From Sporomusaceae bacterium (GTDB taxonomy: Bacteria > Bacillota > Negativicutes > UBA1444), in NCBI GenBank assembly GCA_018434355.1, contig JAHDPL010000024.1, positions 128,522 to 192,521 on the forward strand: DNA of 64,000 nucleotides, in the 5' to 3' direction. Positions 10,084 to 25,900 of the stretch are shown in pieces. The position numbers and the translations under genes are program-made. The stretch's first letter is position 1, and every line of letters starts with the position of its first letter. The notes beneath the pieces are model-generated. The model was given only the letters and a program-made list of their open reading frames with translations, was not told the origin of the DNA and searched no databases.

Positions 10084-11172
10084 TCATATGGATATGCTAA
10101 GATGATTTCGACCGGCTATCCATTGATAGCTGCTGCTCTTGGTCAGTTTCTCGATTAAACGCAGTGACAGGTTATCGCTATCTGGCAGCAACAGAAATGG
10201 ATTTTGCTGCAATCCCGCGTAATTGAACAATAGTTGGAAATCGCCGGTTTTTTCGGAGTACTCAAGTGTCAGCTCGATTGCCGGATCGCCGGGAAATAGC
10301 GGCAATAACATTTGGCCGAGAACTTCTTCCACGATTAGCAAGATGTGGCTTACGGTTCGTTTATCTGCCGTATGGCGGGCGCAAAACAGCTCCAGGTTTG
10401 CCTGCAGTTTATAAAGGTCGAAATGGCGACTGACCACTTTTTCACAAAACTTGCGGATTCTTTGGATAAAGATCCGCGTTTTTTCTTTTTGCGGGTTATC
10501 GAAAATGTCGCTCGGTTTGCCTTCTTCATAGATGATTCCTTCGTCCATGTAAAACACGCGGCTTGACACATTTTTGGCGAAATCCATTTCATGTGTCACG
10601 ATCGCCATTGTCATGCCGTCTTTGGCCAACCTGCGAATTACGGACAGCACTTCGCTGACCATGGTGGGGTCGAGTGCCGAAGTCGGTTCGTCAAACAGGA
10701 TGATTTCCGGGTCCATTGCCAGACAACGGGCGATAGCGACCCGCTGTTTTTGGCCGCCGGAGAGTTCATCGGGAAACTGATGCAGCTTTTCTGATACTCC
10801 GACGGATTTCAGCAGTTCTATGGCTTTTGATTCCGCATCCTGGCGAGACTTCCCGAGCAGTATCATGGGTCCAAGCGTCAGGTTATCCAAGACTGTTAAG
10901 TGTGCAAACAGGTTGAAGGATTGAAAGACCATGCCCATTTTGCGCCGCAACTTCGGTTCATCCGTGCCTTTTTGCAGGATATTGACTCCGTCAATCACGA
11001 TGCTGCCGCCGGTAGGGCGTTCGAGCAGGTTCAGGCAACGCAGGAAAGTGCTTTTGCCGGTGCCGGACGGCCCGATGATCGAAATGACTTCGCCCTTGCG
11101 GATTTCGGCATTGATATCTTTTAAAACCCAGTGATCGCCAAAGCGTTTGGAGAGATTCTTCACGCTGATCAT
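10084..11172 (-). CDS. polar amino-acid ABC transporter ATP-binding protein with ~115-aa C-terminal extension of unknown function
   Basis: Walker [10 protein letters not shown], signature [13 protein letters not shown], Walker [12 protein letters not shown]; 362 aa versus ~240 aa for GlnQ-type ATPases. Confidence 0.8.
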
Positions 11173-13526
11173 GGCTGTTGCCTCCTTACCATGGCCGCAA
11201 TGTCGTTTTCCAGGTAGGCAATGGAAAACACACAGGCCGCTTCCCGCTCGTTCAGTTTGTAAAAATTGGCGATGGCCAGGTCGATTTTTCCGGCTTGCAG
11301 CGCAGCAATCATCGCATCATAAGACATATCGGTTATTTCCAGCTTCATCTCCAGATGTTCGGCCAACAGATAAGCCAGCTCGATGTCAAGTCCCGCCATC
11401 ACGCCATTGGACATGAAGGCGTAGGGCTCGCTGAGCAGACAGGTTCCCATCCTGAGCACGCCATTGCGGCCGTCAAGCGTAATTTTAGGTACGGTAGGAG
11501 TAGTCGCAGACAGAATCCATTTTTGCTTCAATCTGTCGATGGTCCCATCCTGCTTGAATTTGTTGATCGCCGCATTGACTTTACGGTGCAGGTCGGGAGC
11601 ATCGCTGCGCATCGGAATGGCAATCTCGACGGTAGACAGGCGCTCCGGCAAAATTTCATAGTATTGCTGGTGTCTAGCCAAGATATATTGCAGGGTGTTC
11701 CGGTCAAAAACAAACGCGTCGGCCTTGTTTGCCCGCAATGCCAGTGCGGCATCAGCCGGGTATACCATATCGACGACCTTGGCATTTTTATATTTCTCAC
11801 GGATGACAAAATCGCCGGTCGTACCGGTAATGACCGCGATTCTTTTGCCGTTGAGGTCAGACAGGCTTTTGATAGCGGCGCCTGTTGTCACAGAGATGGA
11901 TTTGGGTTCAGTTGGTCCGGTGGAGTTGTATACCGCAACCATTGCCAGACTCAGAATCGCCAACAGCAGCAATGTCAACCAACTAGCGCGAGAGGCGAGA
12001 AGACCGGAACAATTTTTTCGGCGCGGATCACTGAGCCGGTCCAGCGCGTCCAAAAATTGCAGCAGCAGGGCGGAAATCGCAAAGTAGAGTACCGCCGTCA
12101 TCAACAGCGGGAAAAACGCGTCGAATGTGCGGCTGCGGATGATGTCACTGGCCTTGGTCAGATCTTGTACGGCGATATAGCCGACAATCGAGGTCATCTT
12201 GACCAGCGAGATGACTTCACCTTTATAAACGCTCAGAACCCGCCGGATGGCTTGGGGCATGATGATGTATACGAACGTTTGAAACTTGTTGAATCCGCCG
12301 GCGATGCCTGCTTCAGTCTGGCCCCGGTCGATGCTTTCGATCGCAGCGCGAAACATCTCCGAAACATAGGCGGCGAAATTCATGCCAAACGCCACGATAG
12401 CCACCAATACCGGCGATACATTGGCATTACCGAAAATCACGTAATACATAATCATCAGCAGCACTAGCACGGGCACGCCGCGCATCAGCGAAATGTAAAG
12501 GCGGGCGGTAAGCTGGAATGATTTTCGGCGCGACATCCGCAAAAAGCAGATGAATCCGCCCAGCAGCGTGCCGAACAGGATGGAGAACAGCGAAATTACC
12601 AGCGTGGTTTTCAGACCGTCGAGGATTAACAAATAGCGGTTTTCCCTGATAATATTGCTGTGAAATCCTTCGACAAGACTTTGGGTCAGCGAAATCGAGT
12701 GAACTGATTTCTGATGGGAGCCTGCCAGGTGAGAGATATTTTTCTTCAATGCAATTACCGCAGTTTTGTCTTCCATATAAGGGATACTGAAGTCGACTTG
12801 TTTCTGTCGCTCAGCGTTGATGGCTATGCAATCAGCGATCATATCCACCTTGCCGCTGGCCAAGGAAGCGATCAATGCGGAAAAATCCATCGACAGGATC
12901 TGCAGATTTATGTTTTCCTGGGCGGCAAAGGTCTGAATCAGTTCAATGTCAAAGCCAACATATTCGCCATCGACATAACCTGCGCTCGGCAGATCGCCGA
13001 TCGCGACTCCCAGGACAACCTTGCGACCGCTTGGATTGACTTTGAACTTTGGCATTTTGATGGTGCCCAGGTCGTTGTCGAACCATTTCCTGTACATCGT
13101 CTCCAGGGAGCCGTCGGTTTTGCGAGCCTGCAAGAAGGCGTCAAAACGGGCCCGTAGCTCAGGGTTGTTTTTGTTGAATCCGATGCCGATGGGAAAGGTT
13201 AGTAGTTGATCGGTAAGGATGCCGACTTCGGCATTGTCTTTTAGCATATTTTTGGCTGCTGCATAATTAGTGATCGCTACGTCGACCTTTTCACTTTTTA
13301 TTGCCAACAACAGATCGGTCTGGGAATTGTAGCGCAAGATTTGGGCGTCAGGAAATCGTTCACTGGCGAATTTGTCATAAATGAAGCCGCTGACTACTCC
13401 GATACGTTTGTTCGACATGTCTTCGATGGTTGCAAGGCGGCTGGTCGGCGTCTGTTTGCTGCAACCGGCAAGCAGAGCCAAAATCATCAGTAGAGTTATG
13501 AACAGTAGGTGCCTTGTGTGTTTCAA
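11169..13526 (-). CDS. fused amino-acid ABC transporter: lipoprotein substrate-binding domain - permease TMD - second substrate-binding domain
   Basis: ~785 aa; AGGAGG + 8 nt + TTG gives [22 protein letters not shown] lipobox (ORF track starts 18 nt upstream at 13544); His/Gln-type permease motifs; two SBP_bac_3-like domains. Confidence 0.75.
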
Positions 13527-13764
13527 CTGAAAAGCCTCCTGCAATATGAGAATGTCCGATTGCTGCCTCTCTAGATAATACGGTGCATTATAGGAAAACC
13601 CCTGCCTAACAAGGACTGTAGACAGGAAAAAATAGGACGAAATTCCCAGTGAAAAATAAGACCTCGGTATGATGGCGGATTGGTTTCTACTTGCTACAAT
13701 TTAATCAGAAAGCAGGACAGGAAAATCCTGAAACAAAAATAAAAAATTAGGGAGGAATAATACA

Positions 13765-13926
13765 ATGTTTAGCATGATTCAAGCGGTTCTCCAAAATAAA
13801 AAAGGTCAAGGAATGGTTGAGTATGGTTTGATTCTGGCTCTGGTTGCTGTTGTCGGAATGGCTGGTCTGGTACTGCTTGGACCGCAGGTGTTGGCGCAGT
13901 TCAATACGGTTGCCGGCGCTCTCTAA
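13765..13926 (+). CDS. flp: Flp/Fap-family type IVb pilin (53 aa)
   Basis: Not in ORF track (<60 aa). GGAGG RBS; MFSMIQAVLQNKKGQGMVEYGLILALVAVVGMAGLVLLGPQVLAQFNTVAGAL with the Flp GxGxxEYxL motif and hydrophobic helix. Confidence 0.7.
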   Translation: MFSMIQAVLQNKKGQGMVEYGLILALVAVVGMAGLVLLGPQVLAQFNTVAGAL

Positions 13927-13941
13927 AAAGGAACATGATGA

Positions 13942-13970
13942 ACCGGGCGAAAAGCCCGGTTTCTTTTTTT
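13942..13970 (+). terminator. Rho-independent terminator after flp
   Basis: ACCGGGCGAAAAGCCCGGT hairpin + T9. Confidence 0.8.
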
Positions 13971-14092
13971 GCACAAATAAGAATAATTCTTGACTCTGGG
14001 TGTGAGAACTGATACATTTTATATGTAAACAAGTTGTCAGATTGTCAGAGCGGCAAAAGTTCTTGGCAATATGTGTAAGGGAGGAAAACAGG

Positions 14093-14695
14093 ATGGAAAG
14101 CAACTTTTTTGATGCGGTAAAAAAACGCAGGACCCGCTATGCGCTCAGCAAAGATCCGGTGATTAGCAATGAACGGATTCAGGAGATTGTTAGTGAAGCG
14201 GTGAAACATTCGCCTTCAGCGTTCAATTCGCAGAGTGCTAGAGTTGTGGTCTTGTTCGGTGAGCAACATGATCGACTGTGGGATATTGTTAAAGCGGAAC
14301 TGAAAAAAATCATGCCGCCGGAAGGGTTTGGTTCGACGGAAGAAAAAATCAACGGTGCGTTTCGTAGCGGCTATGGAACGGTGATGTTCTTTGAGGACCA
14401 GAGCGTGGTGGAAGGATTGCAGAAGCAATTTCCGCTATACAAAGATGCTTTTCCCGTATTCTCGATGAATTCGGCAGGGATGTTGCAGTTCGTTGTCTGG
14501 ACTGCATTGGCGCAGGAAGGAATCGGCGCATCGCTACAACATTACAATCCGGTAATTGATGAAGCGGTCCGCGCAGCCTGGGATTTGCCGGCCAGCTGGA
14601 AACTATCGGCACAAATGCCATTTGGCAAGCCAATCGCAGAACCAAGTGAAAAGACATTCCAACCGCTCGAATCCAGAGTCAAGGTTTTTAAATAA
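14093..14695 (+). CDS. nitroreductase-family protein
   Basis: MESNFFDAVKKRRTRYALSKDPVISNERIQEIV...; AAGGGAGG RBS; ORF track begins at TTG 14042. Confidence 0.75.
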   Translation: MESNFFDAVKKRRTRYALSKDPVISNERIQEIVSEAVKHSPSAFNSQSARVVVLFGEQHDRLWDIVKAELKKIMPPEGFGSTEEKINGAFRSGYGTVMFFEDQSVVEGLQKQFPLYKDAFPVFSMNSAGMLQFVVWTALAQEGIGASLQHYNPVIDEAVRAAWDLPASWKLSAQMPFGKPIAEPSEKTFQPLESRVKVFK

Positions 14696-14734
14696 GCAGA
14701 CATTCTTCTGCGGAATATCTTTTGGACAGTTATA

Positions 14735-14777
14735 AGAGCCGGAATCCTTTTATGCAGGGGTTCCGGCTCTCATTTTT
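14735..14777 (+). terminator. Rho-independent terminator
   Basis: AGAGCCGGAA...TTCCGGCTCT hairpin + T-run. Confidence 0.65.
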
Positions 14778-14864
14778 GGTTGCAGTAACTATCGTTAAGG
14801 CAGGATTATCGGCGGCGAGCGTATAATACAATAAATCAAAGTCGTAGCGGGAGAGTGGAAGAAG

Positions 14865-16526
14865 ATGGAACCAGTGCAGGCGATTGTATTTGAACAGCTG
14901 TTTTGCCTGGAAGAATTGCAGCGACTGCAGGATCAATTTGCCGCAGCGACAGGAGTGGCTTCCATCATCACCAGACCTGATGGAACGCCGATTACCCGGC
15001 CAAGTAAATTTTGCCGGCTTTGCGTGGATATTATTCGAAAAACTCCAATCGGGCTGGCCAATTGTTGTCGCTCTGATGCGCAAATCGGCCGCTTGCGACT
15101 GGATGGGCCAACGGTGCAATTGTGTGAAAGCGGCGGACTTTGGGATGCCGGAGCCGGTATTTCCGTTAATGGCCAACACTTGGCGAACTGGCTGATTGGA
15201 CAGGTTCGCGATGAAAATCATACCGAAGCCCAGATCCGTGAATATGCCATTAAGATTGGAGCCGATGAAGCGAAAGTAGTAGAGGCTTTTTTTGAAATCC
15301 CATCCATGTCATTGGAACGGTTTCGTGATATAGCCAGTTTGCTATTTACGCTCAGTAGCCAACTTGCGGATACTGCCGCCAAAAAACTGCTGCAAAATCA
15401 GTTATTGAGCGCTAAAGAAGTGGCCGAAGAAAACGAAACCAGATTTAAAGCCCTGCATAATGCTTCGTTTGGCGGGATTTCAATCCATGATAAGGGGATA
15501 ATTCTTGACTGCAATCAAGGTCTAGCAGAAATATCCGGCTATTCAGTGGAAGAATTGGTTGGAATGAACGGTTTGTTGCTTATTGCCGAGCGCTCTCGCG
15601 AACTGGTCATGAAAAACATTCTGTCTGGATATGAAAAACCCTATGAAGCCTTCGGGGTAAGAAAAAATGGTGAAGAATTTCCCATGCGTTTAGAAGCTCG
15701 AGAGATTCCCTATAAAGGAAAACAGGTCAGGACTGTTGAATTTAGAGATATTACCGAACAAAAACAGGCAGAACAGATCATTGAAAACAAAAACAAAGAA
15801 CTGGAACAGATTGTTTATGTAGCGTCGCATGATTTGCGTTCACCGCTGGTTAATGTAGATGGCTATAGCCGTGAAATGCAGTATTTGGTGGAAGAACTCC
15901 GACTTGCACTTGGCGAAGAGCAAGCTGACAGTCCAAATTTGAATGCGGCGCGTGCTGTATTGCCGGAGATGACTGATGCTTTGCGACACGTCAGAAACAG
16001 CACTAGCCAAATGGACGCATTGCTGAAAGGATTGCTGCGGCTTTCTCGATTGGGGAGAGCGGCGCTTTGCTTGGAACATTTGAATATGAAAGACCTGCTC
16101 GGTCGCGTCGCATCGTCCTACGAGTTTCAGCTCCGATCCGCAGGGATTAGTATAGAAATTGACGGATTGCCTGATTGCCAGGGCGATGCGGTTCAGGTGG
16201 CGCAGATTTTCTCCAATTTAATCGGTAATGCGGTGAAATTTACTGACCCAAGCAGACCTGGCGTTATTCGGGTCAGCGGTATGACTGAGATGGGCCGCAG
16301 CATTTACTGTGTAGAGGACAATGGCATCGGAATAGCACCGGAACATCAGAATAATATATTTGAACTGTTTCATCGTTTGAATCCGGCCGATACCGAAGGG
16401 GAAGGGCTTGGACTCACCATTGTCAGGCAGGTGGTCGGGCGGTTGGGCGGTGATATTCGATTGGAGTCACAACTAGGAGTGGGGAGTCGGTTTTTTGTTG
16501 CATTGCCGGCCGCTCGCTCTAAGTGA
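14865..16526 (+). CDS. cytoplasmic sensor histidine kinase with PocR ligand-binding domain, PAS, HisKA, HATPase_c
   Basis: N-terminal PocR signature (ITRPDGTPITRP...CRLC...CCRSD...QLCESGGLWDAG), PAS (FGVRKNGEEFP), H-box VASHDLRSPL, G-boxes; no TM segments. Confidence 0.8.
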   Translation: MEPVQAIVFEQLFCLEELQRLQDQFAAATGVASIITRPDGTPITRPSKFCRLCVDIIRKTPIGLANCCRSDAQIGRLRLDGPTVQLCESGGLWDAGAGISVNGQHLANWLIGQVRDENHTEAQIREYAIKIGADEAKVVEAFFEIPSMSLERFRDIASLLFTLSSQLADTAAKKLLQNQLLSAKEVAEENETRFKALHNASFGGISIHDKGIILDCNQGLAEISGYSVEELVGMNGLLLIAERSRELVMKNILSGYEKPYEAFGVRKNGEEFPMRLEAREIPYKGKQVRTVEFRDITEQKQAEQIIENKNKELEQIVYVASHDLRSPLVNVDGYSREMQYLVEELRLALGEEQADSPNLNAARAVLPEMTDALRHVRNSTSQMDALLKGLLRLSRLGRAALCLEHLNMKDLLGRVASSYEFQLRSAGISIEIDGLPDCQGDAVQVAQIFSNLIGNAVKFTDPSRPGVIRVSGMTEMGRSIYCVEDNGIGIAPEHQNNIFELFHRLNPADTEGEGLGLTIVRQVVGRLGGDIRLESQLGVGSRFFVALPAARSK

Positions 16527-16565
16527 ATTATTATGAAGGAAAACTTCGTTCAAGGAGCTGAGCGC

Positions 16566-17012
16566 ATGAATCAAGATGTGGTCATTCTCGTTGCGGAAGA
16601 CGATGAAGGGCACGCTGGTCTGATCCGGAAAAATTTGGCCCGTGCAGGAATTGCAAATCAATTGTTGCATTTCAAAGATGGGCAGGCGATTGTAGATTTT
16701 TTGTTTCGATATGGCGAAGGTCCATATCGTCAGGACAACGTACCTTATGTTTTGTTGTTAGATATTCGGATGCCAAAACTTGATGGTACGGAAGTATTGA
16801 AGTTGCTCAAGGCGGATAAAGAATTGAGAAAAATACCGGTGATCATGATTACAACGACCGATGATCCGCGGGAAGTTGAAAAATGCCATGCAATTGGTTG
16901 TAGCAACTATATCACCAAACCGGTCGACTATGATGCGTTCGTCAACGCAATACGGCAACTGGGCTTGTTTTTGGCCGTTGTTCAGGTTCCAGCTGTACAC
17001 GGAGCTCATTAA
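16566..17012 (+). CDS. stand-alone receiver-domain response regulator (CheY-like)
   Basis: MNQDVVILVAEDDEGHAGLIRKNLARAG...LLLDIRMPKLDGTEVLK; AAGGAG RBS 8 nt upstream. Confidence 0.8.
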   Translation: MNQDVVILVAEDDEGHAGLIRKNLARAGIANQLLHFKDGQAIVDFLFRYGEGPYRQDNVPYVLLLDIRMPKLDGTEVLKLLKADKELRKIPVIMITTTDDPREVEKCHAIGCSNYITKPVDYDAFVNAIRQLGLFLAVVQVPAVHGAH

Positions 17013-17024
17013 AGGAGTCGACGC

Positions 17025-18959
17025 ATGGACGAGGTTGCACACCGGAACATGGCGGCAAATAAACGTGTTCTGGTAGTCGATGACGATGAAGGTTTGAGAA
17101 ATCTAATTGCACGAAGGCTGCGCAAGGCGGGCTTTGAAGTTTCGCTTGCCGTCAATGGAGCGGCTGCGGTCGAACTTGCATTGGTCGATCCTGGTCAATT
17201 GCTGGTGCTTGACCAAAAGCTTGTCGATATGACCGGGCGAGAAGTGATTCGTCTGCTAACGGAGCAGGGTTGCAAGGTTCATTTTGTCATGATGACTGGA
17301 CAGGGCGATGAGCGGCTGGCCGTGGAAATGATGAAACTTGGCGCAGCCGATTATCTGGTCAAGGGGCTTGACTTGCTTGACTTACTGCCTGCGACGCTGG
17401 ACCGTGTATTTCGTGCCATCGAAACAGAAAACCGATTACTGAAAGCAGAAAAAGAGCTGCAGGATAGCAGGGAACAATACCGGGCGCTGATTGAGCAGGC
17501 CTATGAAGCAGTGGTGCTGATTGATCCGGAAACTTGGCTGATTGTTGAAGTAAACCAACGGTTTAGCGAATGGTTTGGCTACAGGTTGCCGGCAGACGCT
17601 CCGCTTTCACGCAATGCTATTTTATCTGAGGCATCAGCCAATCAGGAATACTACGATGCAAAACTATTTGCCGACGGATTTTTGCCGGTGGCGCGCCGAA
17701 CTTTTCGCCATAAGGACGGCACATTGCTGTTTATGGAGCGGAGCGCCAAAATCATCAATCATCAATCGCGTCGTTTAGTCGTCGTCATCTATCGCAACAT
17801 TGCCGAACAGCTCCAACAGGAACAGGCGCGACTGCAGGATGCGGCGATTGCCCGCCGAATTCAAAGGGCGCAACTGTCTTGCCCGGATGAAACGGAATAT
17901 GTGTCGATCGAGACGGCATTTCTGCCCTGTGGGGATATCAGCGGAGATCTGTATCATCTGGAATGGCGAAATGACGGAAATTTGCTGCGCGGTTATCTGG
18001 TTGATGTGGCGGGGCATGGGTTGACAACGGCGCTATATACATCGACAATCAATATATTGTTGCATGAAGCTGCCGAATTGGATGCTTCACTCTCGGAACA
18101 GCTCGATTGGCTAAATCGACAAGTGGTCAGACATTTTTCTACCAGCGCCTACGTCGCTGCAATTGCATTTGAACTTGATCTGCAGATGGGGGAACTTCGG
18201 TACGCGAGTGCTGGAATCAATCGTTTCTGGGTGCGGATGGCTGCCCGGAAAGGAATGGTGGCGGTTTCCGGCCCATATCTCGGCAAAGAACCGTCTTGGC
18301 GCTATATGATGCAGCAATTGCCGATTGCAGCCGGTGATCACATTTGTTTTGCTACCGATGGCGTTGAAACCATACTGGCGGATCAGCCTCTATGCCAGGC
18401 ATGTGATGGAAGACAGATATCCGCGATGCTTTTGGCTCTACCGGAATGGACTGAAAAAACGCATGATACGACTGCCGTCTGTTTGCAGATTAAAGCGTTG
18501 CCGCACTCCCTGCAGGACGGTAAGTGGCCCAAAGTTTTGAAATTGAACGGGTTTGACGATTATCGACGCTTGAAAGGGCAAGTGGCAAAAATACTGGCTG
18601 ATGCAACCGATTTACCTCATTCCTTGCAGGAAGTTGCAGTGAATGAGGCTTTGGCTAATGCTATGGAATGCAGGGATGGCGTTCCCCGACAGCACCGAGC
18701 GAGAATCCGGTTCAACAAAATCGGCGCATGGTTGATTGTTCGCGTGCGAACCTCACGGATTGGATTCGCCGGAAATGCCGTTTTGCGTCGGTTGCGGGCA
18801 ATGCCTGACGAAATGTTTGCTTTTGGCGAGGATCAGGCGATGGGGCGGGGGATTCCTCTGATGTTAAGCCTATCACACAAAATGATGTATAACAGTGACG
18901 GTACAGAAGTACTGCTGGCCTGGAATATGAAACGACAGGAACTAAATAACAACAAGTGA
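17025..18959 (+). CDS. multidomain signalling protein: receiver - PAS - PP2C/SpoIIE phosphatase - HATPase_c (RsbW-like) domain
   Basis: REC (VLVVDDDEGLRNLIARRLRKAGFEV), PAS, PP2C motif (GDISGDLYHL...VDVAGHGLTTAL), C-terminal GHKL N-box (EVAVNEALANAMECRDG) and G2 (AMGRGIPLM). Confidence 0.75.
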   Translation: MDEVAHRNMAANKRVLVVDDDEGLRNLIARRLRKAGFEVSLAVNGAAAVELALVDPGQLLVLDQKLVDMTGREVIRLLTEQGCKVHFVMMTGQGDERLAVEMMKLGAADYLVKGLDLLDLLPATLDRVFRAIETENRLLKAEKELQDSREQYRALIEQAYEAVVLIDPETWLIVEVNQRFSEWFGYRLPADAPLSRNAILSEASANQEYYDAKLFADGFLPVARRTFRHKDGTLLFMERSAKIINHQSRRLVVVIYRNIAEQLQQEQARLQDAAIARRIQRAQLSCPDETEYVSIETAFLPCGDISGDLYHLEWRNDGNLLRGYLVDVAGHGLTTALYTSTINILLHEAAELDASLSEQLDWLNRQVVRHFSTSAYVAAIAFELDLQMGELRYASAGINRFWVRMAARKGMVAVSGPYLGKEPSWRYMMQQLPIAAGDHICFATDGVETILADQPLCQACDGRQISAMLLALPEWTEKTHDTTAVCLQIKALPHSLQDGKWPKVLKLNGFDDYRRLKGQVAKILADATDLPHSLQEVAVNEALANAMECRDGVPRQHRARIRFNKIGAWLIVRVRTSRIGFAGNAVLRRLRAMPDEMFAFGEDQAMGRGIPLMLSLSHKMMYNSDGTEVLLAWNMKRQELNNNK

Positions 18960-18966
18960 GGCAACG

Positions 18967-20142
18967 ATGGAGTGGGAAAATAAAACAGATAGTTCCGCCC
19001 GCTGGCGGGAAGATGCCGAAAAGGCATTGCTAAGGGGACAAATCGACGAGGCGTTTCGCAATATTGACAAGGCGATTGCCGCCAGCGGTCGCACGATCGA
19101 TTTGCTGATGAAGGCGGACCTGCTTTGGGCAGCCGGCAAGCATGAGCAATGCATCGAATATATCGAGAACAACATGGTCAGGTTTGAAGCCGATTTAACG
19201 GAGCGTGAGCGAAAAAGCCGATTGTTGCCATTGTTGCGCAAAGGCGCAGAGTATTTCTATAAAAAAGCCGATTCGCTGTATGAGGCAGGGCGTTATGCAG
19301 AATGCGCCGAGTTTGCCAAATTTGTTCTTACCGAGCATGCTAGTTTTTTGCAACAGAAAAAATATCGCGAATTATTTGAGTTTGCCTGGCAAAGTTCCAA
19401 TGACGAATTGCTGCGCAGCCTATATAAAAGTCGTGATTATGAGGGATGCGTCGATGCCGTCGATCATATCTTCGCTCAGGCGCGTCGTTTGACGACCTTT
19501 GGCCAGCGCAACCGCTATCGGAAATTGCGGGCGAAGGCGTATTTTCGCCAGGGTCGTTATGCAATCGGTCTGCTCGATTATTTTGCCGTGCCTGGCGTCT
19601 GGATAACATTGTTTGCAGTGATAATCCTTGTTTATGGTCTAAATATCGGTTATCAGATACTGGTGGGAAGTGGTTTCTTTAAACCGTCATCTGTCGTGAC
19701 GCAAAAAAATGAATCGCCGACCGCGACAACACCGTCTGAAGCTGTAAAAGTCGCGCCGACCAGACCGGCAGTCAGGCGGGCGGAAATTAAAAGCGTCAAA
19801 TTGTTTGAAGCCGATCGGGCGATTCCGCTGGTCGGGGCGCGGGTCTACCAAAATCAGTTCACTCGCCAAGCCCGGCGGATCTTTGTTGAAGTTCATTATC
19901 GCAATCTTAATTTCCGTAAGGCTGACGTATCGTTGCCGCTGATCATCCAGTACATCAGTCCGACCGGTGTTCTATTGCAGGAACTGACCACGACATCCAA
20001 CCCGAAAAAGGAATACGAATCGGCGATTACTTCCATGGGGTGGCGACCGGATGAAGATGCCGCCTGGCAACCAGGACGTTATACGGTCCGGGTGATATTG
20101 GATGGCGAACAGCTGCCGGACGTAAACTTTGAAGTGCGATGA
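18967..20142 (+). CDS. hypothetical bitopic membrane protein: cytoplasmic TPR-like N-domain, one TM helix, extracytoplasmic ~115-aa domain
   Basis: TM helix VWITLFAVIILVYGLNIGYQILV; C-terminal domain homologous to repeats of the secreted protein at 53873-54877. Confidence 0.5.
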   Translation: MEWENKTDSSARWREDAEKALLRGQIDEAFRNIDKAIAASGRTIDLLMKADLLWAAGKHEQCIEYIENNMVRFEADLTERERKSRLLPLLRKGAEYFYKKADSLYEAGRYAECAEFAKFVLTEHASFLQQKKYRELFEFAWQSSNDELLRSLYKSRDYEGCVDAVDHIFAQARRLTTFGQRNRYRKLRAKAYFRQGRYAIGLLDYFAVPGVWITLFAVIILVYGLNIGYQILVGSGFFKPSSVVTQKNESPTATTPSEAVKVAPTRPAVRRAEIKSVKLFEADRAIPLVGARVYQNQFTRQARRIFVEVHYRNLNFRKADVSLPLIIQYISPTGVLLQELTTTSNPKKEYESAITSMGWRPDEDAAWQPGRYTVRVILDGEQLPDVNFEVR

Positions 20143-20837
20143 GTGGAGCAGAACTGGCCTATTTGCGGCGGATCCCTGTATTTGAAGATTTGGCGCCGGA
20201 AGATTTGCAGCTGATTATTCGGGTTACTGCAGAACGGCGGATTGCTCGCGGTCAGGCAGTGTTTAGCGAAGGAGAGCCCGGCGAAGGATTTCACTATATT
20301 CGCAGCGGACGGGTCAAAATTATCAAACTGTCTGCTGATGGGCGGGAGCATATCCTGAACATCCTTGGTCCTGGCGATGTTTTTGCCGAAGTACTGTTGT
20401 TTAATGAAGCGCCGTATCCGGCTACTGCCATTGCTGTGGAAGATGCCGTGATCGGTGTCATTCGCAATCGTGACCTAGAAGCGCTATTGGTTGCTCAGCC
20501 ACGACTGGCGGTTCATGTCATACGGGTGATGAGCAAGAAGCTGTTGTACATCCAGTCCAAAGTAAAGTCGTTTGCATTGGCCGACAGTCAGGCGAAAGTC
20601 GCGCAAACCCTGGATTATTTACTGGGACGGTATGGGAACCCTACCGGCAATACGCGGGAAGTAACCCTGGAAATTAATCGCCAGGATCTTGCCAATATGG
20701 CTGGAACGACGCGAGAAACAGTAAGTCGTGTGTTCAGGACGTTAAAGGATGATGGAGTGATTGAGGATGAAGAACGACGAATCGTAGTAAGGGATCCAGT
20801 TCGTTTGCGGACATATTTCGAACAATCGGTAGTTTAA
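20139..20837 (+). CDS. Crp-family (cNMP-binding) transcriptional regulator
   Basis: cNMP-binding domain plus C-terminal HTH with recognition helix RETVSR (CRP-like R-E...R); no FNR Cys cluster; start overlaps upstream gene stop (ATGA). Confidence 0.8.
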   Translation: MSGAELAYLRRIPVFEDLAPEDLQLIIRVTAERRIARGQAVFSEGEPGEGFHYIRSGRVKIIKLSADGREHILNILGPGDVFAEVLLFNEAPYPATAIAVEDAVIGVIRNRDLEALLVAQPRLAVHVIRVMSKKLLYIQSKVKSFALADSQAKVAQTLDYLLGRYGNPTGNTREVTLEINRQDLANMAGTTRETVSRVFRTLKDDGVIEDEERRIVVRDPVRLRTYFEQSVV

Positions 20838-20940
20838 AGTTGACCCCGCTTGGTTTAATTAGTTATAATATTATTAGTTGTAACTAAAACGATGTATAAT
20901 ATTATTTTGTTTTCATCGTTAACACCGAGGAGGGTTATGT

Positions 20941-21240
20941 TTGTTGGTTTTGACCCCGGAAGCTATTAGTTATATCAAAGAAAAGCAACAACCGATCTAT
21001 TTGGATCATCCGCCGCTTTCCGGCGCAAACAGTCAGATGAAGATCAAGCCGCCACCGGTAAAATTCGGGGTACCGAAAAATCTGCCTGATTTTACTTTAC
21101 ATGAGGAACAGGGTGTAACCGTCTATATGCCTCGCGGACTGGAAGTGGTCCAGATAACAGTGGAATTGTCGGGGATTTTGTTCCTGAAGAAACTGATGGC
21201 TCGTGTAGCCGTCGGAAAAAAGTTGGGAAGTTGTTGTTAA
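20941..21240 (+). CDS. small hypothetical protein ending in C-terminal Cys-Cys (possible CC/Se-motif family)
   Basis: 99 aa, TTG start after GAGGAGGG; ...RVAVGKKLGSCC*; own sigma-70-like promoter TTGACC-17-TATAAT upstream. Confidence 0.45.
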   Translation: MLVLTPEAISYIKEKQQPIYLDHPPLSGANSQMKIKPPPVKFGVPKNLPDFTLHEEQGVTVYMPRGLEVVQITVELSGILFLKKLMARVAVGKKLGSCC

Positions 21241-21267
21241 ACAAGAATAAGCTATCTGCGATGATTA

Positions 21268-21307
21268 ACCGGGTGTTTGCAAGTGCGAACCCCGGTGATT
21301 TTTTTTT
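21268..21307 (+). terminator. Rho-independent terminator
   Basis: ACCGGG...CCCGGT hairpin followed by T9. Confidence 0.6.
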
Positions 21308-21323
21308 ATAAAAAGTTTTTGCG

Positions 21324-21339
21324 TGTGATTTATATCACA
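21324..21339 (+). promoter_or_regulatory. CRP-type operator TGTGA-N6-TCACA
   Basis: Perfect palindrome TGTGATTTATATCACA 80 nt upstream of the ATG at 21404. Confidence 0.6.
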
Positions 21340-21403
21340 GCATTGTTAGCCAGAATCAATTATTCTATAGACAGAGCAGAACAAATATCAGGGGGAATGA
21401 AAG

Positions 21404-22375
21404 ATGTTGCCCAAAGGCGCCAACCTACAAAAAATTCGTAATGGAAATAAAACGTATGCGGTTACCCCGCATCTGCCAGGCGGGTTTGTAAAACCGGAAG
21501 TCTTGGAAAAGTATGCGCAAGTAGCACGAAAATATGAAGGAACGCTAAAATTAACCTCAGCCCAACGGATCATGATCACCAACTTGAAAGCGGAAGACAT
21601 CGAAGCGATCTGGGCTGAGCTGGGGATGCAACCGGCGATGGGATTTGCCAATTGTGTACGTAGCGTCAAAGTTTGTCCGGGGATTGCTTTCTGCAAACGA
21701 GGTAAGCAGGACAGCGTGAAACTGGGACTAGAGCTGGATCGGCGATATATCAAGAAAGAGATGCCTTCGCGCATGAAATTCGGCGTGTCGGGTTGTCCGA
21801 ACTCTTGTTCGGAATCTGTCATCAAGGATGTCGGAGTCATTGGCACTGAAGCTGGATGGGATGTATATGTGGGAGGCAGCGCCGGGTCGCATCCACGATT
21901 GGCCGATAAATTGGCTGAAAGCCTTGATTATTACGACACATTGCGTCTTGTTGATATCGTAGTGCGTTATTATCAGAAATATGCCGACATCGAACGGGTC
22001 GGACAGTTTATCGACCGGATTGGCTTTGCAAAGTTCCAGGCCGATGTACTAGCTGAGTTTAACGGAACTGGGGCGGTGGAAAGCACGGTGACCGCATCGA
22101 CGGTTTCGTCGGAAAAATTGACACCGATGCCGGGGGCTTTGACAGAGGGGACATTGGTGGTTGGCGATCCGATAACGCAAGGCAGCGTAATCGCTGACAT
22201 CATTCGGATCTATCCGCAGACGATTCCGGTATTGCGTGGGTTTGGCATGGGTTGTCTCGGTTGCCCGTCCGCCACGGGGGAACCGTTGGAAAAGGCGGCA
22301 GGGATTCATGGTTTGGCGGTTGAGGAACTGATAGTCGCACTAAATGAAGTCGTATTGAGGGGGAAATTAACATGA
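21404..22375 (+). CDS. nitrite/sulfite reductase-like (ferredoxin-like half domain + 4Fe-4S/siroheme domain) fused to C-terminal DUF1858 redox-disulfide domain
   Basis: C-X6-C...C-X3-C cluster (CVRSVKVCPGIAFC, SGCPNSC); C-terminal ~80 aa with GFGMGCLGCP motif typical of DUF1858. Confidence 0.6.
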   Translation: MLPKGANLQKIRNGNKTYAVTPHLPGGFVKPEVLEKYAQVARKYEGTLKLTSAQRIMITNLKAEDIEAIWAELGMQPAMGFANCVRSVKVCPGIAFCKRGKQDSVKLGLELDRRYIKKEMPSRMKFGVSGCPNSCSESVIKDVGVIGTEAGWDVYVGGSAGSHPRLADKLAESLDYYDTLRLVDIVVRYYQKYADIERVGQFIDRIGFAKFQADVLAEFNGTGAVESTVTASTVSSEKLTPMPGALTEGTLVVGDPITQGSVIADIIRIYPQTIPVLRGFGMGCLGCPSATGEPLEKAAGIHGLAVEELIVALNEVVLRGKLT

Positions 22376-22980
22376 GCGCATTTATCGGGCCGATCCACTA
22401 TTGGTTGTATGGAAAAATCCATCTGGTGAATCAGCGGCAGGAATATCTACGGGAAAAAGTCAGTGAGATGTGCGGGTCCACTGCCGAAGAATTATGGGAA
22501 CAAGTGACGCAGAGCTTTGGAGAACCTTTGCCTGACAAGGATCTGGGCGAGTTAATCGCGCACGACAATATTCATGGTTGGCTGCAACGTCAGATCAATT
22601 TGGCGGAAAGCCGGGAAGCGGCTTTCATCAAGGAACTGACAGACACTTGTGGCGGAGCTGCGCAGGACCTGATTGGCAGGACATTTGCCGAGCATGGAAA
22701 ACAAACCGGCGAGGCAGTCGCCGCATCCGGACGTTATGATCTGAGTTCGGCAGCAAGCATATTGAAAGCATTGAATGACCACTACCTCAGCGGAATGCCT
22801 TGCGACGACGGTGATTGCGTCATGGCGATCCATCAGCCGAATTGGCAGCGGACCGGCGTCAACGAGGCGGACATGCGCTCGTATTATGAGCAATGGCTCA
22901 AAGGCTTCGTACAAGGTGCAAACGCAAAATTTGTCTACAAACTGGATGGGGAGAGTCACCAGATTTCTCCTTCTGCATAA
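22372..22980 (+). CDS. hypothetical protein (202 aa), translationally coupled to the sulfite-reductase-like gene
   Basis: ATGA overlap with upstream gene; no recognisable motifs. Confidence 0.5.
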   Translation: MSAFIGPIHYWLYGKIHLVNQRQEYLREKVSEMCGSTAEELWEQVTQSFGEPLPDKDLGELIAHDNIHGWLQRQINLAESREAAFIKELTDTCGGAAQDLIGRTFAEHGKQTGEAVAASGRYDLSSAASILKALNDHYLSGMPCDDGDCVMAIHQPNWQRTGVNEADMRSYYEQWLKGFVQGANAKFVYKLDGESHQISPSA

Positions 22981-23014
22981 AAAATGGCAACCAAATGGTG
23001 GTAGTGATTTGAAA

Positions 23015-23058
23015 AACCGGCGGGCCGCTCCTTAATGGGAAACGGCGCCGGTTTTCTT
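23015..23058 (+). terminator. Rho-independent terminator
   Basis: AACCGGCG...CGCCGGTT hairpin + TTCTTT. Confidence 0.6.
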
Positions 23059-23156
23059 TGCAGTTTATGCCAATGACAAAGGAAATAGCTGATATTTATC
23101 GAATTACGACAATAAACATCGTTGACGAATTCAAAAAGTGAAGGAGAAATGCAGGC

Positions 23157-23921
23157 GTGGATAAAATGCTGGGTGGAGTAACCGGGAAAGTTGCGATTGT
23201 CACCGGCGCAACCCGCGGCATTGGGCAGGCGATTGCGCAAGCTTACGCGGCAGCTGGAATCAAAGTGGCGGTTGTCAGTCGTAGTGCCGTGGATTGTGAA
23301 CAGGCGGCCCGGTCAATCAACGAAACCGGCGGAGCTGCGATGGCGGCGCACTGCGACGTGACGCAGGTGGCTGCGTTCAGAAAAGTGGTCGAGCAAGTGG
23401 TCGAATACTGGGGCAGGTTGGACATCATGGTCAACAACGCCGGGACGGCGATTACCCGTAAGGCGATCGACCTGTCGGAAGAGGAGTGGGACCGGGTCGT
23501 GGACCTGGACCTGAAGAGCGTTTTCTTTTGCGCCCAGTCGGCTGCGCGGGTGATGATTCCCCAACAGAGCGGCAAGATTATCAACGTCGCATCGATTCTT
23601 GGTTTGGTTGGCGCGAACGGCTTGATTCCTTATTGCGCGGCCAAGGGAGGCGTCGTGAACCTGTCACGGGCGCTGGCCAGTGAATGGGCCCGTTATGGTA
23701 TTCAAGTAAATTCTTTGTGTCCGGGTTATGTCATCACAGATATTAATCGCGATAAATTGAGCGATGAAAAAACGCAGGCTGCTTTGTTAACAAAAACACC
23801 GGCTGGTCGCTTAGGTCAGGTGGGGGACATGACAGGGGCGGCATTGTTTCTTGCTTCGCCGGCATCCGACTATATGACCGGTCAATGTCTGACCGTGGAC
23901 GGAGGTTGGACTGCAATCTGA
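23157..23921 (+). CDS. SDR-family oxidoreductase
   Basis: GKVAIVTGATRGIGQAIA Rossmann motif, NNAG, Y...K catalytic pattern; GTG 10 nt after AAGGAG. Confidence 0.8.
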   Translation: MDKMLGGVTGKVAIVTGATRGIGQAIAQAYAAAGIKVAVVSRSAVDCEQAARSINETGGAAMAAHCDVTQVAAFRKVVEQVVEYWGRLDIMVNNAGTAITRKAIDLSEEEWDRVVDLDLKSVFFCAQSAARVMIPQQSGKIINVASILGLVGANGLIPYCAAKGGVVNLSRALASEWARYGIQVNSLCPGYVITDINRDKLSDEKTQAALLTKTPAGRLGQVGDMTGAALFLASPASDYMTGQCLTVDGGWTAI

Positions 23922-23969
23922 TTTTTAAAGGGATATTTGTGACGGCATTTATCTTGAGGAGGGGTGTTT

Positions 23970-25421: not shown

Positions 25422-25447
25422 CGTAAAGAAAGGCAAGGGATCAAACA

Positions 25448-25900
25448 ATGGAAAATAATCGGGTGGAACAGGCGGTTGCTTTATTTACAGGAGGGATGGC
25501 CTGTTCGCAGGCGATTTTGGCAACGTACGGGCCGCTTTTCGGGTTTGACCGAGATGAAGCGATTCGTATTGCACGTGGATTTGGCGGCGGCATGGGACGT
25601 CTGTCGGAGACATGCGGTGCGGTGACCGGCGCTTTTATGGCGATTAGTCTGAAGTTTGACGGAACTGATAAACAGACCAAGGAGGATAATTATGCACTGA
25701 TGCAGGAGTTCGCCCGCCGGTTCAAGTCGAAGCATCATTCGCTGAATTGCACGCAGTTGCTTGACTGTGACCTTGGCAAACCGGAAGATCAGGCAAAATT
25801 CCGTGAACTGGGCAGAATGCAGTCGCATTGCATTTGTTATGTGCGAGAAGCAGCGCAGCATCTTGAAGAATTGTTGGAACTGGAGAACAAGCCGGTTTGA
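25448..25900 (+). CDS. C_GCAxxG_C_C-family protein
   Basis: 150 aa; GGMACSQAIL and ETCGAVTGAFMA motifs characteristic of the family. Confidence 0.65.
   Translation: MENNRVEQAVALFTGGMACSQAILATYGPLFGFDRDEAIRIARGFGGGMGRLSETCGAVTGAFMAISLKFDGTDKQTKEDNYALMQEFARRFKSKHHSLNCTQLLDCDLGKPEDQAKFRELGRMQSHCICYVREAAQHLEELLELENKPV

What the first reader, a model, noticed from the sequence alone, without database searches (positions are those of the whole stretch)
14865..20837. Five-gene cytoplasmic signalling operon: PocR-PAS histidine kinase, lone receiver, REC-PAS-PP2C-HATPase, TPR/membrane protein, Crp-family regulator
Genes are tightly spaced or overlapping (ATGA junctions). A soluble PocR-domain kinase implies sensing of a small organic ligand. 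The third protein combines a receiver, a PP2C phosphatase and a GHKL kinase-like domain, uniting partner-switching-type modules in one polypeptide. The operon ends in a Crp-family regulator whose predicted operator lies just downstream. This architecture is not a described system.
Basis: partly seen in the sequence, partly recalled or inferred. Interest (0 to 1): 0.7.

Follow-up and report, generated by a model that had tools for sequence, protein, structure and literature searches.

The report
Two signalling modules joined by deletion
The five genes are real and correctly described, but they are a sensor kinase/phosphatase trio and an unrelated membrane-protein/Crp-regulator pair that a 2-kb deletion placed side by side in one lineage of uncultured Negativicutes, and the unusual third protein belongs to an already described type (HsbR/CrsR-like).

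Summary
All five + strand genes exist at the stated coordinates, and the domain calls hold: PocR-PAS histidine kinase, lone receiver, REC-PAS-PP2C-RsbW-like protein, TPR/TM/Ig-like membrane protein, Crp-family regulator. The RsbW-like domain is sub-threshold in Pfam. It is confirmed by an AlphaFold model whose top 18 PDB matches are all RsbW, SpoIIAB or UsfX.

The genes are not one conserved unit. In relatives, G1-G2-G3 end in a terminator and are separated from G4-G5 by a minus-strand membrane-protein gene plus lysR. Near-conspecific strains keep G4-G5 but lack G1-G3. A distant genome has G4-Crp-nitrite-reductase-like genes without the trio. Another distant genome has a PocR-kinase/REC/REC-PP2C trio without G4/G5. 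The 7-bp G3|G4 gap is a deletion scar, real and fixed (independent contig, 95% identity).

REC-PP2C-anti-sigma/kinase is the published HsbR/CrsR architecture. Here a PAS domain is inserted, the kinase G1 box is degenerate (TSRIGF instead of DxGxG), and no STAS partner gene lies in 64 kb. The Crp regulator has a conserved perfect CRP box upstream of a NirB-like/HCP-associated gene, which is its likely target.

Verdict: ordinary modular signalling, a new variant of a known kind.

The parts
14735..14770 (+). Intrinsic terminator of the upstream nitroreductase gene. It is the 5' boundary of the cluster.
   Evidence: 15-bp stem, 8 GC pairs, T-run. An equivalent hairpin is present in L002, L010 and L006.
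14797..14827 (+). Conserved promoter block upstream of G1 (xxGGCAGGAnnATC...GTGTnTAAT; -10 = TATAAT at 14822-14827). It contains no CRP-like site.
   Evidence: It is the only block conserved among the window, L002, L010 and L006 in alignment A8. The promoter assignment is inference.
14865..16526 (+). G1: soluble PocR-PAS-HisKA-HATPase_c histidine kinase. The phospho-acceptor is His322 in SHDLRSPL, and the N, G1 (DNGIGI), F and G2 (GEGLGL) boxes are intact.
   Evidence: The PocR domain is closely related to the PocR domain fused directly to the PAS-PP2C-GHKL core in P0026 (E 2e-74).
16533..17012 (+). G2: single-domain receiver (probable start 16566). It has the acidic pair D23/D24, the acceptor D77, a conserved Thr (T107-T109 run) and K129 (159-aa numbering).
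   Evidence: It is conserved next to G1 and G3 in all lineages that carry the trio, and in the distant parallel locus L012.
17025..18959 (+). G3: REC-PAS-PP2C-RsbW-like protein (644 aa).
17067..17387 (+). G3 receiver domain (residues 15-121), with D19-D21, acceptor D63, T91 and K113.
   Evidence: Pfam Response_reg 68.6 bits; residues read.
17463..17828 (+). G3 PAS domain (residues 147-268), followed by a helical linker (about 255-285) into the phosphatase.
   Evidence: TIGR00229 match at 147-268 and PAS_8. Linker-mediated control of PPM phosphatases by REC/PAS/GAF inputs is described in PMC12143880.
17877..18500 (+). G3 PP2C/PPM phosphatase domain (residues about 285-492). The metal-binding Asp residues D308, D327 and D481 are invariant, and D445 is present here.
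   Evidence: SpoIIE 74.7 bits; alignment A2.
18513..18932 (+). G3 RsbW/SpoIIAB-type GHKL domain (residues 497-636). N-box E541/N545 are kept but His is replaced by C549. The G1 box DxGxG is replaced by T576-S-R-I-G580-F. The G2-like motif is M606-GRGIP.
   Evidence: Census: 52 representatives at E<=1e-30 among 1.84 billion, with the match lying at or near the C-terminus of every full-length hit inspected.
18926..18950 (+). Deletion breakpoint interval. To its left is the G3 3' end. To its right, the sequence is identical to the lysR-G4 intergenic region of relatives, including the G4 RBS GTGAGG.
   Evidence: Alignments A1 and A6. The same junction, with one SNP, is in the independent JGI contig L021.
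18967..20142 (+). G4: bitopic membrane protein with a cytoplasmic TPR-like domain (3-206), a TM helix (209-234; 19591-19668), a disordered linker and an extracytoplasmic Ig-like beta-sandwich (272-390; 19780-20136).
20139..20837 (+). G5: Crp/Fnr-family regulator. Its recognition helix RETVSR has the CRP-type R180/E181/R185 pattern. It has no Cys, and the cAMP-phosphate Arg-Ser pair appears replaced (YPAT).
   Evidence: specificity rule from PMC1274295.
20840..20869 (+). Strong sigma-70-like promoter (11/12) for the small CC/Se gene, starting 3 bp after the G5 stop.
   Evidence: the sequence is conserved in L019.
20941..21240 (+). CC/Se motif family (seleno)protein gene (99 aa, ends in Cys-Cys). 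It has its own promoter and terminator (hairpin plus T-run at about 21268-21308).
   Evidence: NF041239 48.9 bits; PF28096; terminator read from the sequence.
21324..21339 (+). Perfect CRP-type palindrome TGTGATTTATATCACA, the likely operator of G5.
   Evidence: It is the only exact match in 64 kb. It is identical in L001-L005, L009 and L019, and present with one mismatch at the same position in the distant L018.
21404..22980 (+). Probable G5 target operon: a NirB-type siroheme/4Fe-4S domain fused to the HCP-associated redox-disulfide domain (21404-22375), plus an overlapping unknown 202-aa gene (22372-22980).
   Evidence: It co-occurs with the Crp gene in the window clade and in L018.

Best explanation
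The interval holds independent units that a deletion has joined.

Unit 1 (G1-G2-G3) is a cytoplasmic two-component input into a partner-switch-type output.
- The PocR (+PAS) domain of G1 binds a small ligand (inferred).
- G1 autophosphorylates on His322 and transfers the phosphoryl group to the lone receiver G2 (Asp77) and to the receiver of G3 (Asp63) (inferred from intact motifs and conserved adjacency).
- Through the PAS domain and helical linker, receiver phosphorylation switches the G3 PP2C phosphatase and its C-terminal RsbW-like domain between states.
- These act on a phospho-Ser/Thr partner (probably a STAS anti-anti-sigma protein) and/or sequester a sigma factor encoded elsewhere in the genome.
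- The adenine-binding Asp of the G1 box is replaced in every one of the 16 family members aligned in A2. The RsbW-like domain is therefore more likely a binding (anti-sigma-like) module than an active serine kinase.
- G2 most likely acts as a competing phosphate sink or kinetic buffer.

Unit 2 is G4 (a TPR/TM/Ig-like membrane protein of unknown role) followed by G5. G5 is a cAMP-independent Crp/Fnr regulator. It binds the conserved TGTGA-N6-TCACA box and controls the NirB-like/HCP-associated gene pair, an HcpR-like nitrite or nitrosative-stress circuit.

In the window's lineage, a deletion of about 2.1 kb removed the G3 terminator, a minus-strand Cons_hypoth698 gene and lysR. G4-G5 are now probably read through from the G1 promoter.
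For: Shown by tool results:
- Domain architectures and the RsbW fold.
- Intact catalytic motifs in G1, G2, the G3 receiver and the G3 PP2C.
- The altered G1 and N boxes are invariant across the family and differ from bona fide HATPase_c_2 relatives.
- The trio is conserved in four lineages and paralleled in L012 at 32-37% identity.
- The same PAS-PP2C-GHKL core occurs with REC, PocR, dCache, GAF, 4HB_MCP, ABC_sub_bind or DUF4118 inputs. The fused PocR is closely related to the PocR of G1. This is a Rosetta-stone argument for G1 to G3 signal flow.
- Structural states of the locus: L002-L007, L015, L019, L020 and L021.
- Deletion scar.
- CRP box conserved with its target.
- NirB-like plus HCP-associated domain.

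From the literature:
- The HsbR/CrsR mechanism (PMC6482189).
- Exchangeable N-terminal regulators of PPM phosphatases (PMC12143880).
- The R180/E181 rule for TGTGA and the HcpR consensus wTGTGAnnnnnnTCACAw (PMC1274295).
Against: - No STAS gene and no alternative sigma factor lie in the 64-kb window or next to any family member inspected. The target is therefore unidentified.
- Phosphotransfer from G1 to both receivers is inferred, not shown.
- Loss of kinase activity is inferred from motif changes only. 4 of 11 stand-alone relatives also lack the G1 Asp, so this clade may tolerate variation there.
- The G5 effector is unknown, and no hcp gene is in the window.
- G4 occurs without Crp in L015 and L017, so its link to G5 is loose.
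- Co-transcription of G3 and G4 rests on a 7-bp gap and the absence of a terminator.
Confidence: 0.65

Rival explanations
1. The five genes form one integrated, selected signalling system in which the PocR kinase pathway acts through G3 and G4 on the Crp regulator, which then controls the downstream operator.
For: All five genes are co-oriented with gaps of 39 bp or less, there is one ATGA overlap, and no internal terminator is seen. The contiguous arrangement recurs in an independent contig at 95% identity.
Against: - The contiguity is a deletion scar.
- Deeper lineages separate the modules with a terminator and opposite-strand genes.
- Near-conspecific strains have G4-G5 without G1-G3.
- L018 has Crp, its box and its target without the trio.
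- L012 has the trio without G4/G5.
- There is no CRP box at the G1 promoter.
Confidence: 0.07
2. G3 is a true bifunctional HsbR/CrsR-type enzyme. The C-terminal domain is an active serine kinase that phosphorylates an unlinked STAS protein when the receiver is unphosphorylated, and the PP2C dephosphorylates it when the receiver is phosphorylated.
For: - Same domain order as HsbR/CrsR.
- N-box Glu/Asn and a G2-like GRG motif are retained and invariant.
- RsbW/SpoIIAB fold.
- The very strong conservation of the domain implies an important activity.
Against: - The G1 box DxGxG is replaced by TSRIGF in all 16 aligned members, and the N-box His by Cys.
- The Pfam score is sub-threshold, whereas relatives score 41-58 bits.
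- There is no adjacent STAS gene, unlike hsbA/crsA.
Confidence: 0.3
3. The RsbW-like domain has no external partner. It is an intramolecular dimerisation or autoinhibitory module of a plain sensor phosphatase, and no sigma factor or partner switch is involved.
For: No partner genes are linked in any locus inspected. The kinase motifs are degenerate. Published work reports that the D3 domains of HsbR/CrsR homodimerise.
Against: The domain is the best conserved part of the family, with 77-79% mean column identity across paralogues that have different inputs. It stays intact in P0032 and P0034, where the PP2C TDG motif is lost. This pattern fits a shared external partner better than a structural appendage.
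Confidence: 0.15

Closest known systems
HsbR (P. aeruginosa PA3346) / CrsR (Shewanella oneidensis) three-domain response regulators with the STAS partners HsbA/CrsA
   Same: Same order: an N-terminal receiver fed by a phosphorelay, a PP2C phosphatase, and a C-terminal GHKL kinase/anti-sigma domain. Receiver phosphorylation selects between activities (PMC6482189).
   Different: G3 has a PAS domain between the receiver and PP2C. Its host is a Negativicutes organism, whereas the published survey cited places CrsR-CrsA homologues widely in Proteobacteria. The G1-box Asp and N-box His are replaced. No STAS gene is adjacent or anywhere in the 64 kb. Input comes from a soluble PocR kinase with an extra lone receiver rather than from hybrid kinases plus Hpt. 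Sequence orthology was not tested.
Mycobacterium tuberculosis Rv1364c (PAS-PPM-anti-sigma-anti-anti-sigma fusion) and Streptomyces OsaC
   Same: A PAS-regulated PPM phosphatase fused to an RsbW-type domain in one polypeptide (PMC12143880).
   Different: G3 has no C-terminal STAS domain; the protein ends 8 residues after the GHKL domain. G3 also has an added receiver.
Bacillus cereus RsbK-RsbY (kinase plus REC-PP2C controlling the RsbV/RsbW/SigB switch)
   Same: A dedicated histidine kinase controls a receiver-PP2C phosphatase that feeds a partner switch. PMC4574943 appeared in the search list but was not read; the description of the system comes from my own knowledge.
   Different: RsbY lacks the RsbW-like domain, and its genes sit next to the sigB operon. 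Here no sigB-type operon is linked and a lone receiver is added.
HcpR-type CRP/FNR regulators (Desulfovibrio HcpR, consensus wTGTGAnnnnnnTCACAw)
   Same: G5 has the CRP-type R-E-x-x-x-R recognition helix. A perfect, conserved TGTGA-N6-TCACA box lies in front of an N-oxide-type redox enzyme that carries the HCP-associated domain.
   Different: No hcp gene is in the window. Heme or NO binding is untested. By sequence, the closest solved relatives are the cAMP-binding proteins GlxR and Mtb CRP, although the cAMP phosphate-binding Arg-Ser pair appears to be absent.

Membership tests
HsbR/CrsR-type REC-PP2C-anti-sigma/kinase regulators | N-terminal receiver with a phospho-acceptor Asp | tested here: met
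   Response_reg 68.6 bits; D19-D21, D63, T91 and K113 are present.
HsbR/CrsR-type REC-PP2C-anti-sigma/kinase regulators | Central PP2C/PPM phosphatase domain with metal-binding aspartates | tested here: met
   SpoIIE 74.7 bits; D308, D327 and D481 are invariant and D445 is present.
HsbR/CrsR-type REC-PP2C-anti-sigma/kinase regulators | C-terminal GHKL (RsbW-like) domain | tested here: met
   Pfam is sub-threshold (24.1 against 27.4). The AF2 model's top 18 PDB hits are all RsbW, SpoIIAB or UsfX, and the domain is homologous to bona fide HATPase_c_2 proteins.
HsbR/CrsR-type REC-PP2C-anti-sigma/kinase regulators | Kinase-competent nucleotide-binding motifs (N box E..N..H; G1 DxGxG; G2) | tested here: inconclusive
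   E541 and N545 are kept, His is replaced by Cys549, the G1 box reads TSRIGF, and G2 reads MGRGIP. Activity cannot be decided from sequence.
HsbR/CrsR-type REC-PP2C-anti-sigma/kinase regulators | Adjacent STAS anti-sigma antagonist gene (hsbA/crsA) | tested here: not met
   There is no STAS ORF in the 64-kb window or next to the family members in L008, L012 and L015-L018.
HsbR/CrsR-type REC-PP2C-anti-sigma/kinase regulators | Binds and sequesters a sigma factor (RpoS in the described cases) | not testable with these tools
   This needs protein interaction assays. The only sigma gene in the window is rpoD.
Rv1364c-type fully fused partner switch | C-terminal STAS (anti-anti-sigma) domain after the anti-sigma domain | tested here: not met
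   G3 ends at residue 644, 8 residues after the GHKL domain.
Classical HisKA two-component system (G1 with G2 and the G3 receiver) | H box plus N, G1, F and G2 boxes in the kinase; an acidic pocket, Thr and Lys in the receivers | tested here: met
   SHDLRSPL (His322), GNAVKF, DNGIGI, IFELF and GEGLGL. G2 has D23/D24, D77 and K129; the G3 receiver is as above.
Classical HisKA two-component system (G1 with G2 and the G3 receiver) | Phosphotransfer between these particular partners | not testable with these tools
   Only conserved adjacency in four lineages plus L012 supports it.
CRP/FNR family (G5) | cNMP-binding-type beta-barrel plus a C-terminal Crp HTH | tested here: met
   cNMP_binding 90.5, HTH_Crp_2 68.2 and Crp 36.5 bits; the best PDB relatives are GlxR and Mtb CRP at E 5e-31.
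CRP/FNR family (G5) | cAMP-binding residues (E. coli CRP R82/S83), which define the CRP proper subgroup | tested here: inconclusive
   By eye, the aligned segment reads APYPATA with no Arg-Ser. No residue-level alignment tool output was produced.
CRP/FNR family (G5) | N-terminal Cys cluster, which defines the FNR proper subgroup | tested here: not met
   G5 contains no cysteine.
HcpR-like N-oxide regulators | CRP-like operator wTGTGAnnnnnnTCACAw in front of hcp or another N-oxide redox gene | tested here: met
   The perfect box at 21324-21339 is conserved in 7 loci, and present with one mismatch in L018, upstream of the NirB-like/HCP-associated gene.
HcpR-like N-oxide regulators | Heme/NO sensing and orthology to HcpR | not tested
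   No HcpR sequence comparison or phylogeny was made.
   They are contiguous only in the window, L001 and L021. They are split or partly absent in L002-L007, L015 and L017-L020.

The most novel reading that the evidence does not exclude
The PAS-PP2C-RsbW-like core with the invariant TSRIGF and ECRDG motifs defines a small Negativicutes-centred family of sensor proteins: about 52 clusters at 50% identity, with several paralogues per genome and many different inputs. Their kinase-dead anti-sigma-like domains would all converge on one shared partner, a sigma factor or STAS protein. That would make a many-sensors-one-hub stress switch in diderm Firmicutes, with G1-G2-G3 as its His-Asp-fed branch. 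A more speculative extension is that the conserved lone receiver G2, rather than a STAS protein, acts as the antagonist, so that aspartyl phosphorylation replaces serine phosphorylation in the partner switch.
Probability: 0.2. Interest if true: 0.55.

Novelty: new variant of a known kind. Interest (0 to 1): 0.3.

Why it matters
**Consequence for the scan.** A tidy-looking five-gene operon should not be taken as a new system. Its parts have separate evolutionary histories, and the centrepiece protein belongs to a described class.

**What remains of modest interest:**
- A compact, uncharacterised family of sensor phosphatases in Negativicutes. Its RsbW-like domain is more conserved than its catalytic domain yet lacks the canonical adenine-binding motif, which suggests a shared unknown binding partner.
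- A natural Rosetta-stone pair: PocR fused to the output in one protein, against PocR kinase plus receiver-output. It predicts signal flow without experiments.
- A clean natural example of operon fusion by deletion, with four structural states among close relatives. It could be used to study how regulatory rewiring arises.

Tried and rejected
- A profile of the GHKL-like domain against PDB sequences gave no meaningful hit, so structure prediction was needed.
- Two look-ups of window proteins failed, probably through start-codon mismatch.
- An exact 32-mer of the junction found nothing in JGI metagenomes. A gapped pattern then found L021.
- Rfam over 13000-24000 found nothing at gathering score.
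- Cluster-member names were uninformative.
- The 1-mismatch CRP-like site at 18862-18877, inside the G3 3' end, was considered as a G4 promoter operator. It was rejected because 1.9 such sites are expected by chance and it is not conserved in L002.
- A sigma-54 promoter was considered for the conserved TGGCAGG block upstream of G1. It was rejected because no TTGC -12 element lies at the right spacing.
- G4 as a specific known family was rejected. It has no Pfam or NCBIfam hit, and only generic TPR and Ig-like folds match.
- An assembly artefact at the G3|G4 junction was rejected on the evidence of L001 and L021.
- Insertion of yeiH-like/lysR in the relatives, rather than deletion here, was rejected. 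The pair is present in three deeper lineages, L020 retains a lysR remnant, and the window's G3 tail is encoded by former intergenic sequence.

Full report
**Observation**

The five + strand ORFs are at the stated coordinates. Pfam and NCBIfam give the following.

| Gene | Coordinates | Domains |
|---|---|---|
| G1 | 14865-16526 | PocR (160 bits), PAS, HisKA, HATPase_c |
| G2 | 16533-17012 | receiver only |
| G3 | 17025-18959 | receiver, PAS, SpoIIE/PP2C (74.7 bits), HATPase_c_2 (24.1 bits, below the 27.4 cutoff) |
| G4 | 18967-20142 | no family |
| G5 | 20139-20837 | cNMP_binding + HTH_Crp_2 |

- G1's HisKA score is weak. Its H-box SHDLRSPL (His322) and its N, G1, F and G2 boxes are intact. 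The low score comes from a long insertion between the DHp helices.
- G2 and the G3 receiver have complete acidic pockets, Thr and Lys. G2 most likely starts at 16566, behind an AAGGAG RBS.
- Only G4/G5 overlap by ATGA.
- A strong terminator (14735-14770) precedes the cluster, and no convincing terminator lies inside it.

**Is the PP2C + GHKL fusion real?**

- A profile of the C-terminal 140 residues finds nothing in the PDB by sequence.
- An AF2 model is confident (pLDDT 82.7, pTM 0.80). Its 18 best Foldseek matches are exclusively RsbW, SpoIIAB and M. tuberculosis UsfX (TM up to 0.78-0.80).
- An exhaustive phmmer census of 1.84 billion representatives finds 52 close relatives (E<=1e-30). In every full-length hit inspected the match lies at or near the C-terminus, in proteins mostly 600-1174 aa long. 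After a sharp drop come weaker hits that include stand-alone proteins of about 140 aa. Those score 41-58 bits for HATPase_c_2.
- So the fusion is confirmed.

Alignment with the stand-alone relatives and across 16 family members shows these motif changes.

| Motif | Relatives | G3 family |
|---|---|---|
| N-box | E..N..H | Glu541/Asn545 kept, His replaced by Cys549 |
| G1-box | D.G.GF in 7 of 11 | TSRIGF, invariant |
| G2-box | SGRG | MGRGIP |

The PP2C aspartates D308, D327 and D481 are invariant and D445 is present.

The GHKL-like domain is the best conserved part of the family, at 77-79% mean column identity. It stays intact even in P0032 and P0034, where the PP2C TDG motif is lost.

My inference is that it is more likely a binding module (anti-sigma-like pseudokinase) than an active serine kinase. 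Sequence alone cannot settle this.

**A modular family**

The closest homologues of G3 with the same architecture are only five clusters, at 75-98% identity. The next layer, at 56-63% identity over the PAS-PP2C-GHKL core, carries dCache-PAS or PocR in place of the receiver. Further members carry GAF, 4HB_MCP, ABC_sub_bind or DUF4118 inputs. Several paralogues occur per genome (L008, L012, L016-L018).

The PocR domain fused directly to the core in P0026 is closely related to G1's PocR (E 2e-74). This Rosetta-stone relation supports signal flow from G1 to G3.

All named sources are uncultured Negativicutes ("Veillonellaceae") MAGs. An LptA-like gene in the window fits a diderm Firmicute.

**Is the five-gene cluster a unit?**

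| Locus | Relation to the window | Arrangement |
|---|---|---|
| L002-L005/L009 | G3 84% | nitroreductase, G1, G2, G3, hairpin terminator, Cons_hypoth698 (minus), LysR, G4, G5, CC/Se, NIR_SIR |
| L006/L007 | G3 76% | the same as far as the contigs reach |
| L015/L010 | G3 77% | G3 followed by three minus-strand genes and LysR, then G4 (61%) with no Crp, CC/Se or NIR_SIR |
| L019 | G4 91% | nitroreductase, Cons_hypoth698 (minus), LysR, G4, G5; G1-G3 absent |
| L020 | G4 96% | nitroreductase, a lysR 3' remnant of about 330 bp, G4, G5; again no G1-G3 |
| L017 | G4 53% | G4 alone |
| L018 | G4 48% | G4, Crp, NIR_SIR/DUF1858, unknown; no trio |
| L012 | distant Negativicutes MAG | GAF-PAS-PP2C-GHKL, PocR-kinase, lone receiver, REC-GAF-PAS-PP2C; no G4/G5 |

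There are therefore at least three evolutionary units:
- G1-G2-G3
- G4
- G5 with its target genes

**The junction**

- The window follows G3's 3' end up to ...CTGGCCTGGAAT.
- From AACAAGTGAGGCAACGATGGAG onward it is identical to the lysR-G4 intergenic region of L019.
- G3's last ten codons (MKRQELNNNK) are encoded by former intergenic DNA.
- The breakpoint lies in 18926-18950.
- An independent JGI contig (L021), 95.15% identical over 8.5 kb, has the same junction with one SNP.
- So the fusion is real and fixed in a sub-lineage. It is secondary, and it probably places G4-G5 under the G1 promoter.
- The conserved G1 promoter block contains no CRP-like site.

**Module 2**

- *G4.* It is a bitopic membrane protein: a TPR-like cytoplasmic domain, a TM helix, a disordered linker and an extracytoplasmic Ig-like beta-sandwich. 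The topology follows from the positive-inside rule and is inference. Its function is unknown.
- *G5.* Its closest solved relatives are GlxR and Mtb CRP. It has no cysteine, and a YPAT segment sits where CRP has the cAMP-phosphate Arg-Ser pair (by eye). Its recognition helix RETVSR has the R180/E181/R185 pattern, which PMC1274295 links to TGTGA half-sites.
- *The operator.* The only perfect TGTGA-N6-TCACA in 64 kb is at 21324-21339. It is identical in seven related loci and kept with one mismatch at the same position in L018.
- *The likely target.* The box always lies upstream of a gene that fuses a NirB-type siroheme/4Fe-4S domain to the HCP-associated redox-disulfide domain. An overlapping unknown gene follows it. 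This resembles HcpR-type nitrite or nitrosative-stress circuits.
- *The intervening gene.* Between G5 and the box lies a separate CC/Se-motif gene with its own promoter and terminator.

**Comparison with known systems**

- REC + PP2C + kinase/anti-sigma GHKL is the published architecture of HsbR and CrsR. These toggle between phosphorylating and dephosphorylating an adjacent STAS protein, and they sequester RpoS (PMC6482189).
- Rv1364c fuses PAS-PPM-anti-sigma-anti-anti-sigma. REC, PAS, GAF and HAMP are described as exchangeable regulators of PPM phosphatases through helical linkers (PMC12143880).
- G3 differs by the inserted PAS domain, the degenerate G1 box, the lack of any STAS gene in 64 kb, its Negativicutes host, and its PocR-kinase-plus-lone-receiver input.

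**Mechanism**

I commit to the following chain:
1. Ligand binding to PocR/PAS in G1.
2. His322 autophosphorylation.
3. Transfer to G2 (sink or buffer) and to the G3 receiver.
4. A switch of the PP2C and the RsbW-like domain toward an unlinked STAS and/or sigma partner.

Separately, G5 controls the NirB-like operon through the CRP box. Shown here are the architectures, motifs, synteny, deletion scar and operator conservation. Inferred are phosphotransfer, target identity, pseudokinase status, the G5 effector and G3-G4 read-through. Overall confidence is 0.65. The modular/deletion part is about 0.9 and the signalling chain about 0.6.

**Verdict**

The interpretation as a novel integrated five-gene system is not supported. 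This is a new variant of a known kind, of modest interest (0.3).

Noticed in passing
window 14696-18966 and loci L002, L015, L019, L020, L021: The interval between the nitroreductase gene and G4 is an indel hotspot with at least four structural states among relatives: the trio plus yeiH-like/lysR; the trio only; yeiH-like/lysR only; and a lysR remnant only. The L015 lineage has an extra Impact_N and Nramp pair.
   Followed up: yes
window 20941-21240; L019 4960-5244: This is a CC/Se motif family (seleno)protein gene ending in Cys-Cys, with its own strong promoter and terminator. In L019 and L020 the called ORF is 94 aa. In L019, whose sequence was read, it stops five codons earlier at a TAG and so lacks the CC end. 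L018 lacks the gene altogether.
   Followed up: partly
window 20860-20890: An AT-rich inverted repeat, TTAGTTATAATATTATTAGTTGTAACTAA, overlaps the promoter-like site just after the G5 stop. It is conserved in L019. It may be an operator for an unknown regulator of the CC/Se gene.
   Followed up: no
window 22372-22980: This 202-aa protein has no Pfam or NCBIfam hit. It overlaps the stop of the NirB-like gene and is conserved with it in every locus that has the Crp gene, including the distant L018.
   Followed up: partly
window 13765-13926: A lone 53-aa Flp/Fap pilin-like gene (PF04964), followed by a terminator (13940-13962), sits between an ABC transporter and the nitroreductase gene. It is conserved in L002 and L003.
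   Followed up: no
window 11169-13544 (minus strand): A 791-aa fusion of solute-binding (SBP_bac_3), permease (BPD_transp_1) and further SBP_bac_3 regions in one polypeptide, followed by an ABC ATPase gene. This is an unusual fused amino-acid ABC importer.
   Followed up: no
window 5231-10065 and 23157-30864: Two related fermentative gene sets are present: BKACE, SCFA transporter, CoA-transferase A/B and thiolase; and SDR, an HpaB-family enzyme, C_GCAxxG_C_C, a PAS-sigma54 activator, BKACE, 3-hydroxyacyl-CoA dehydrogenase and an SCFA transporter. This suggests sigma-54- and PucR-controlled beta-keto-acid or amino-acid fermentation.
   Followed up: no
window 18862-18877: A CRP-like site with one mismatch (TGTTAAGCCTATCACA) lies inside the G3 3' end, about 90 bp upstream of G4. 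It is not conserved in L002, and about 1.9 such sites are expected by chance.
   Followed up: yes
L008, L016, L017, L018: Negativicutes contigs carry clusters of two or three paralogous sensor-PP2C genes side by side, some with and some without the RsbW-like domain. This points to a large lineage-specific expansion of sensor phosphatases.
   Followed up: partly
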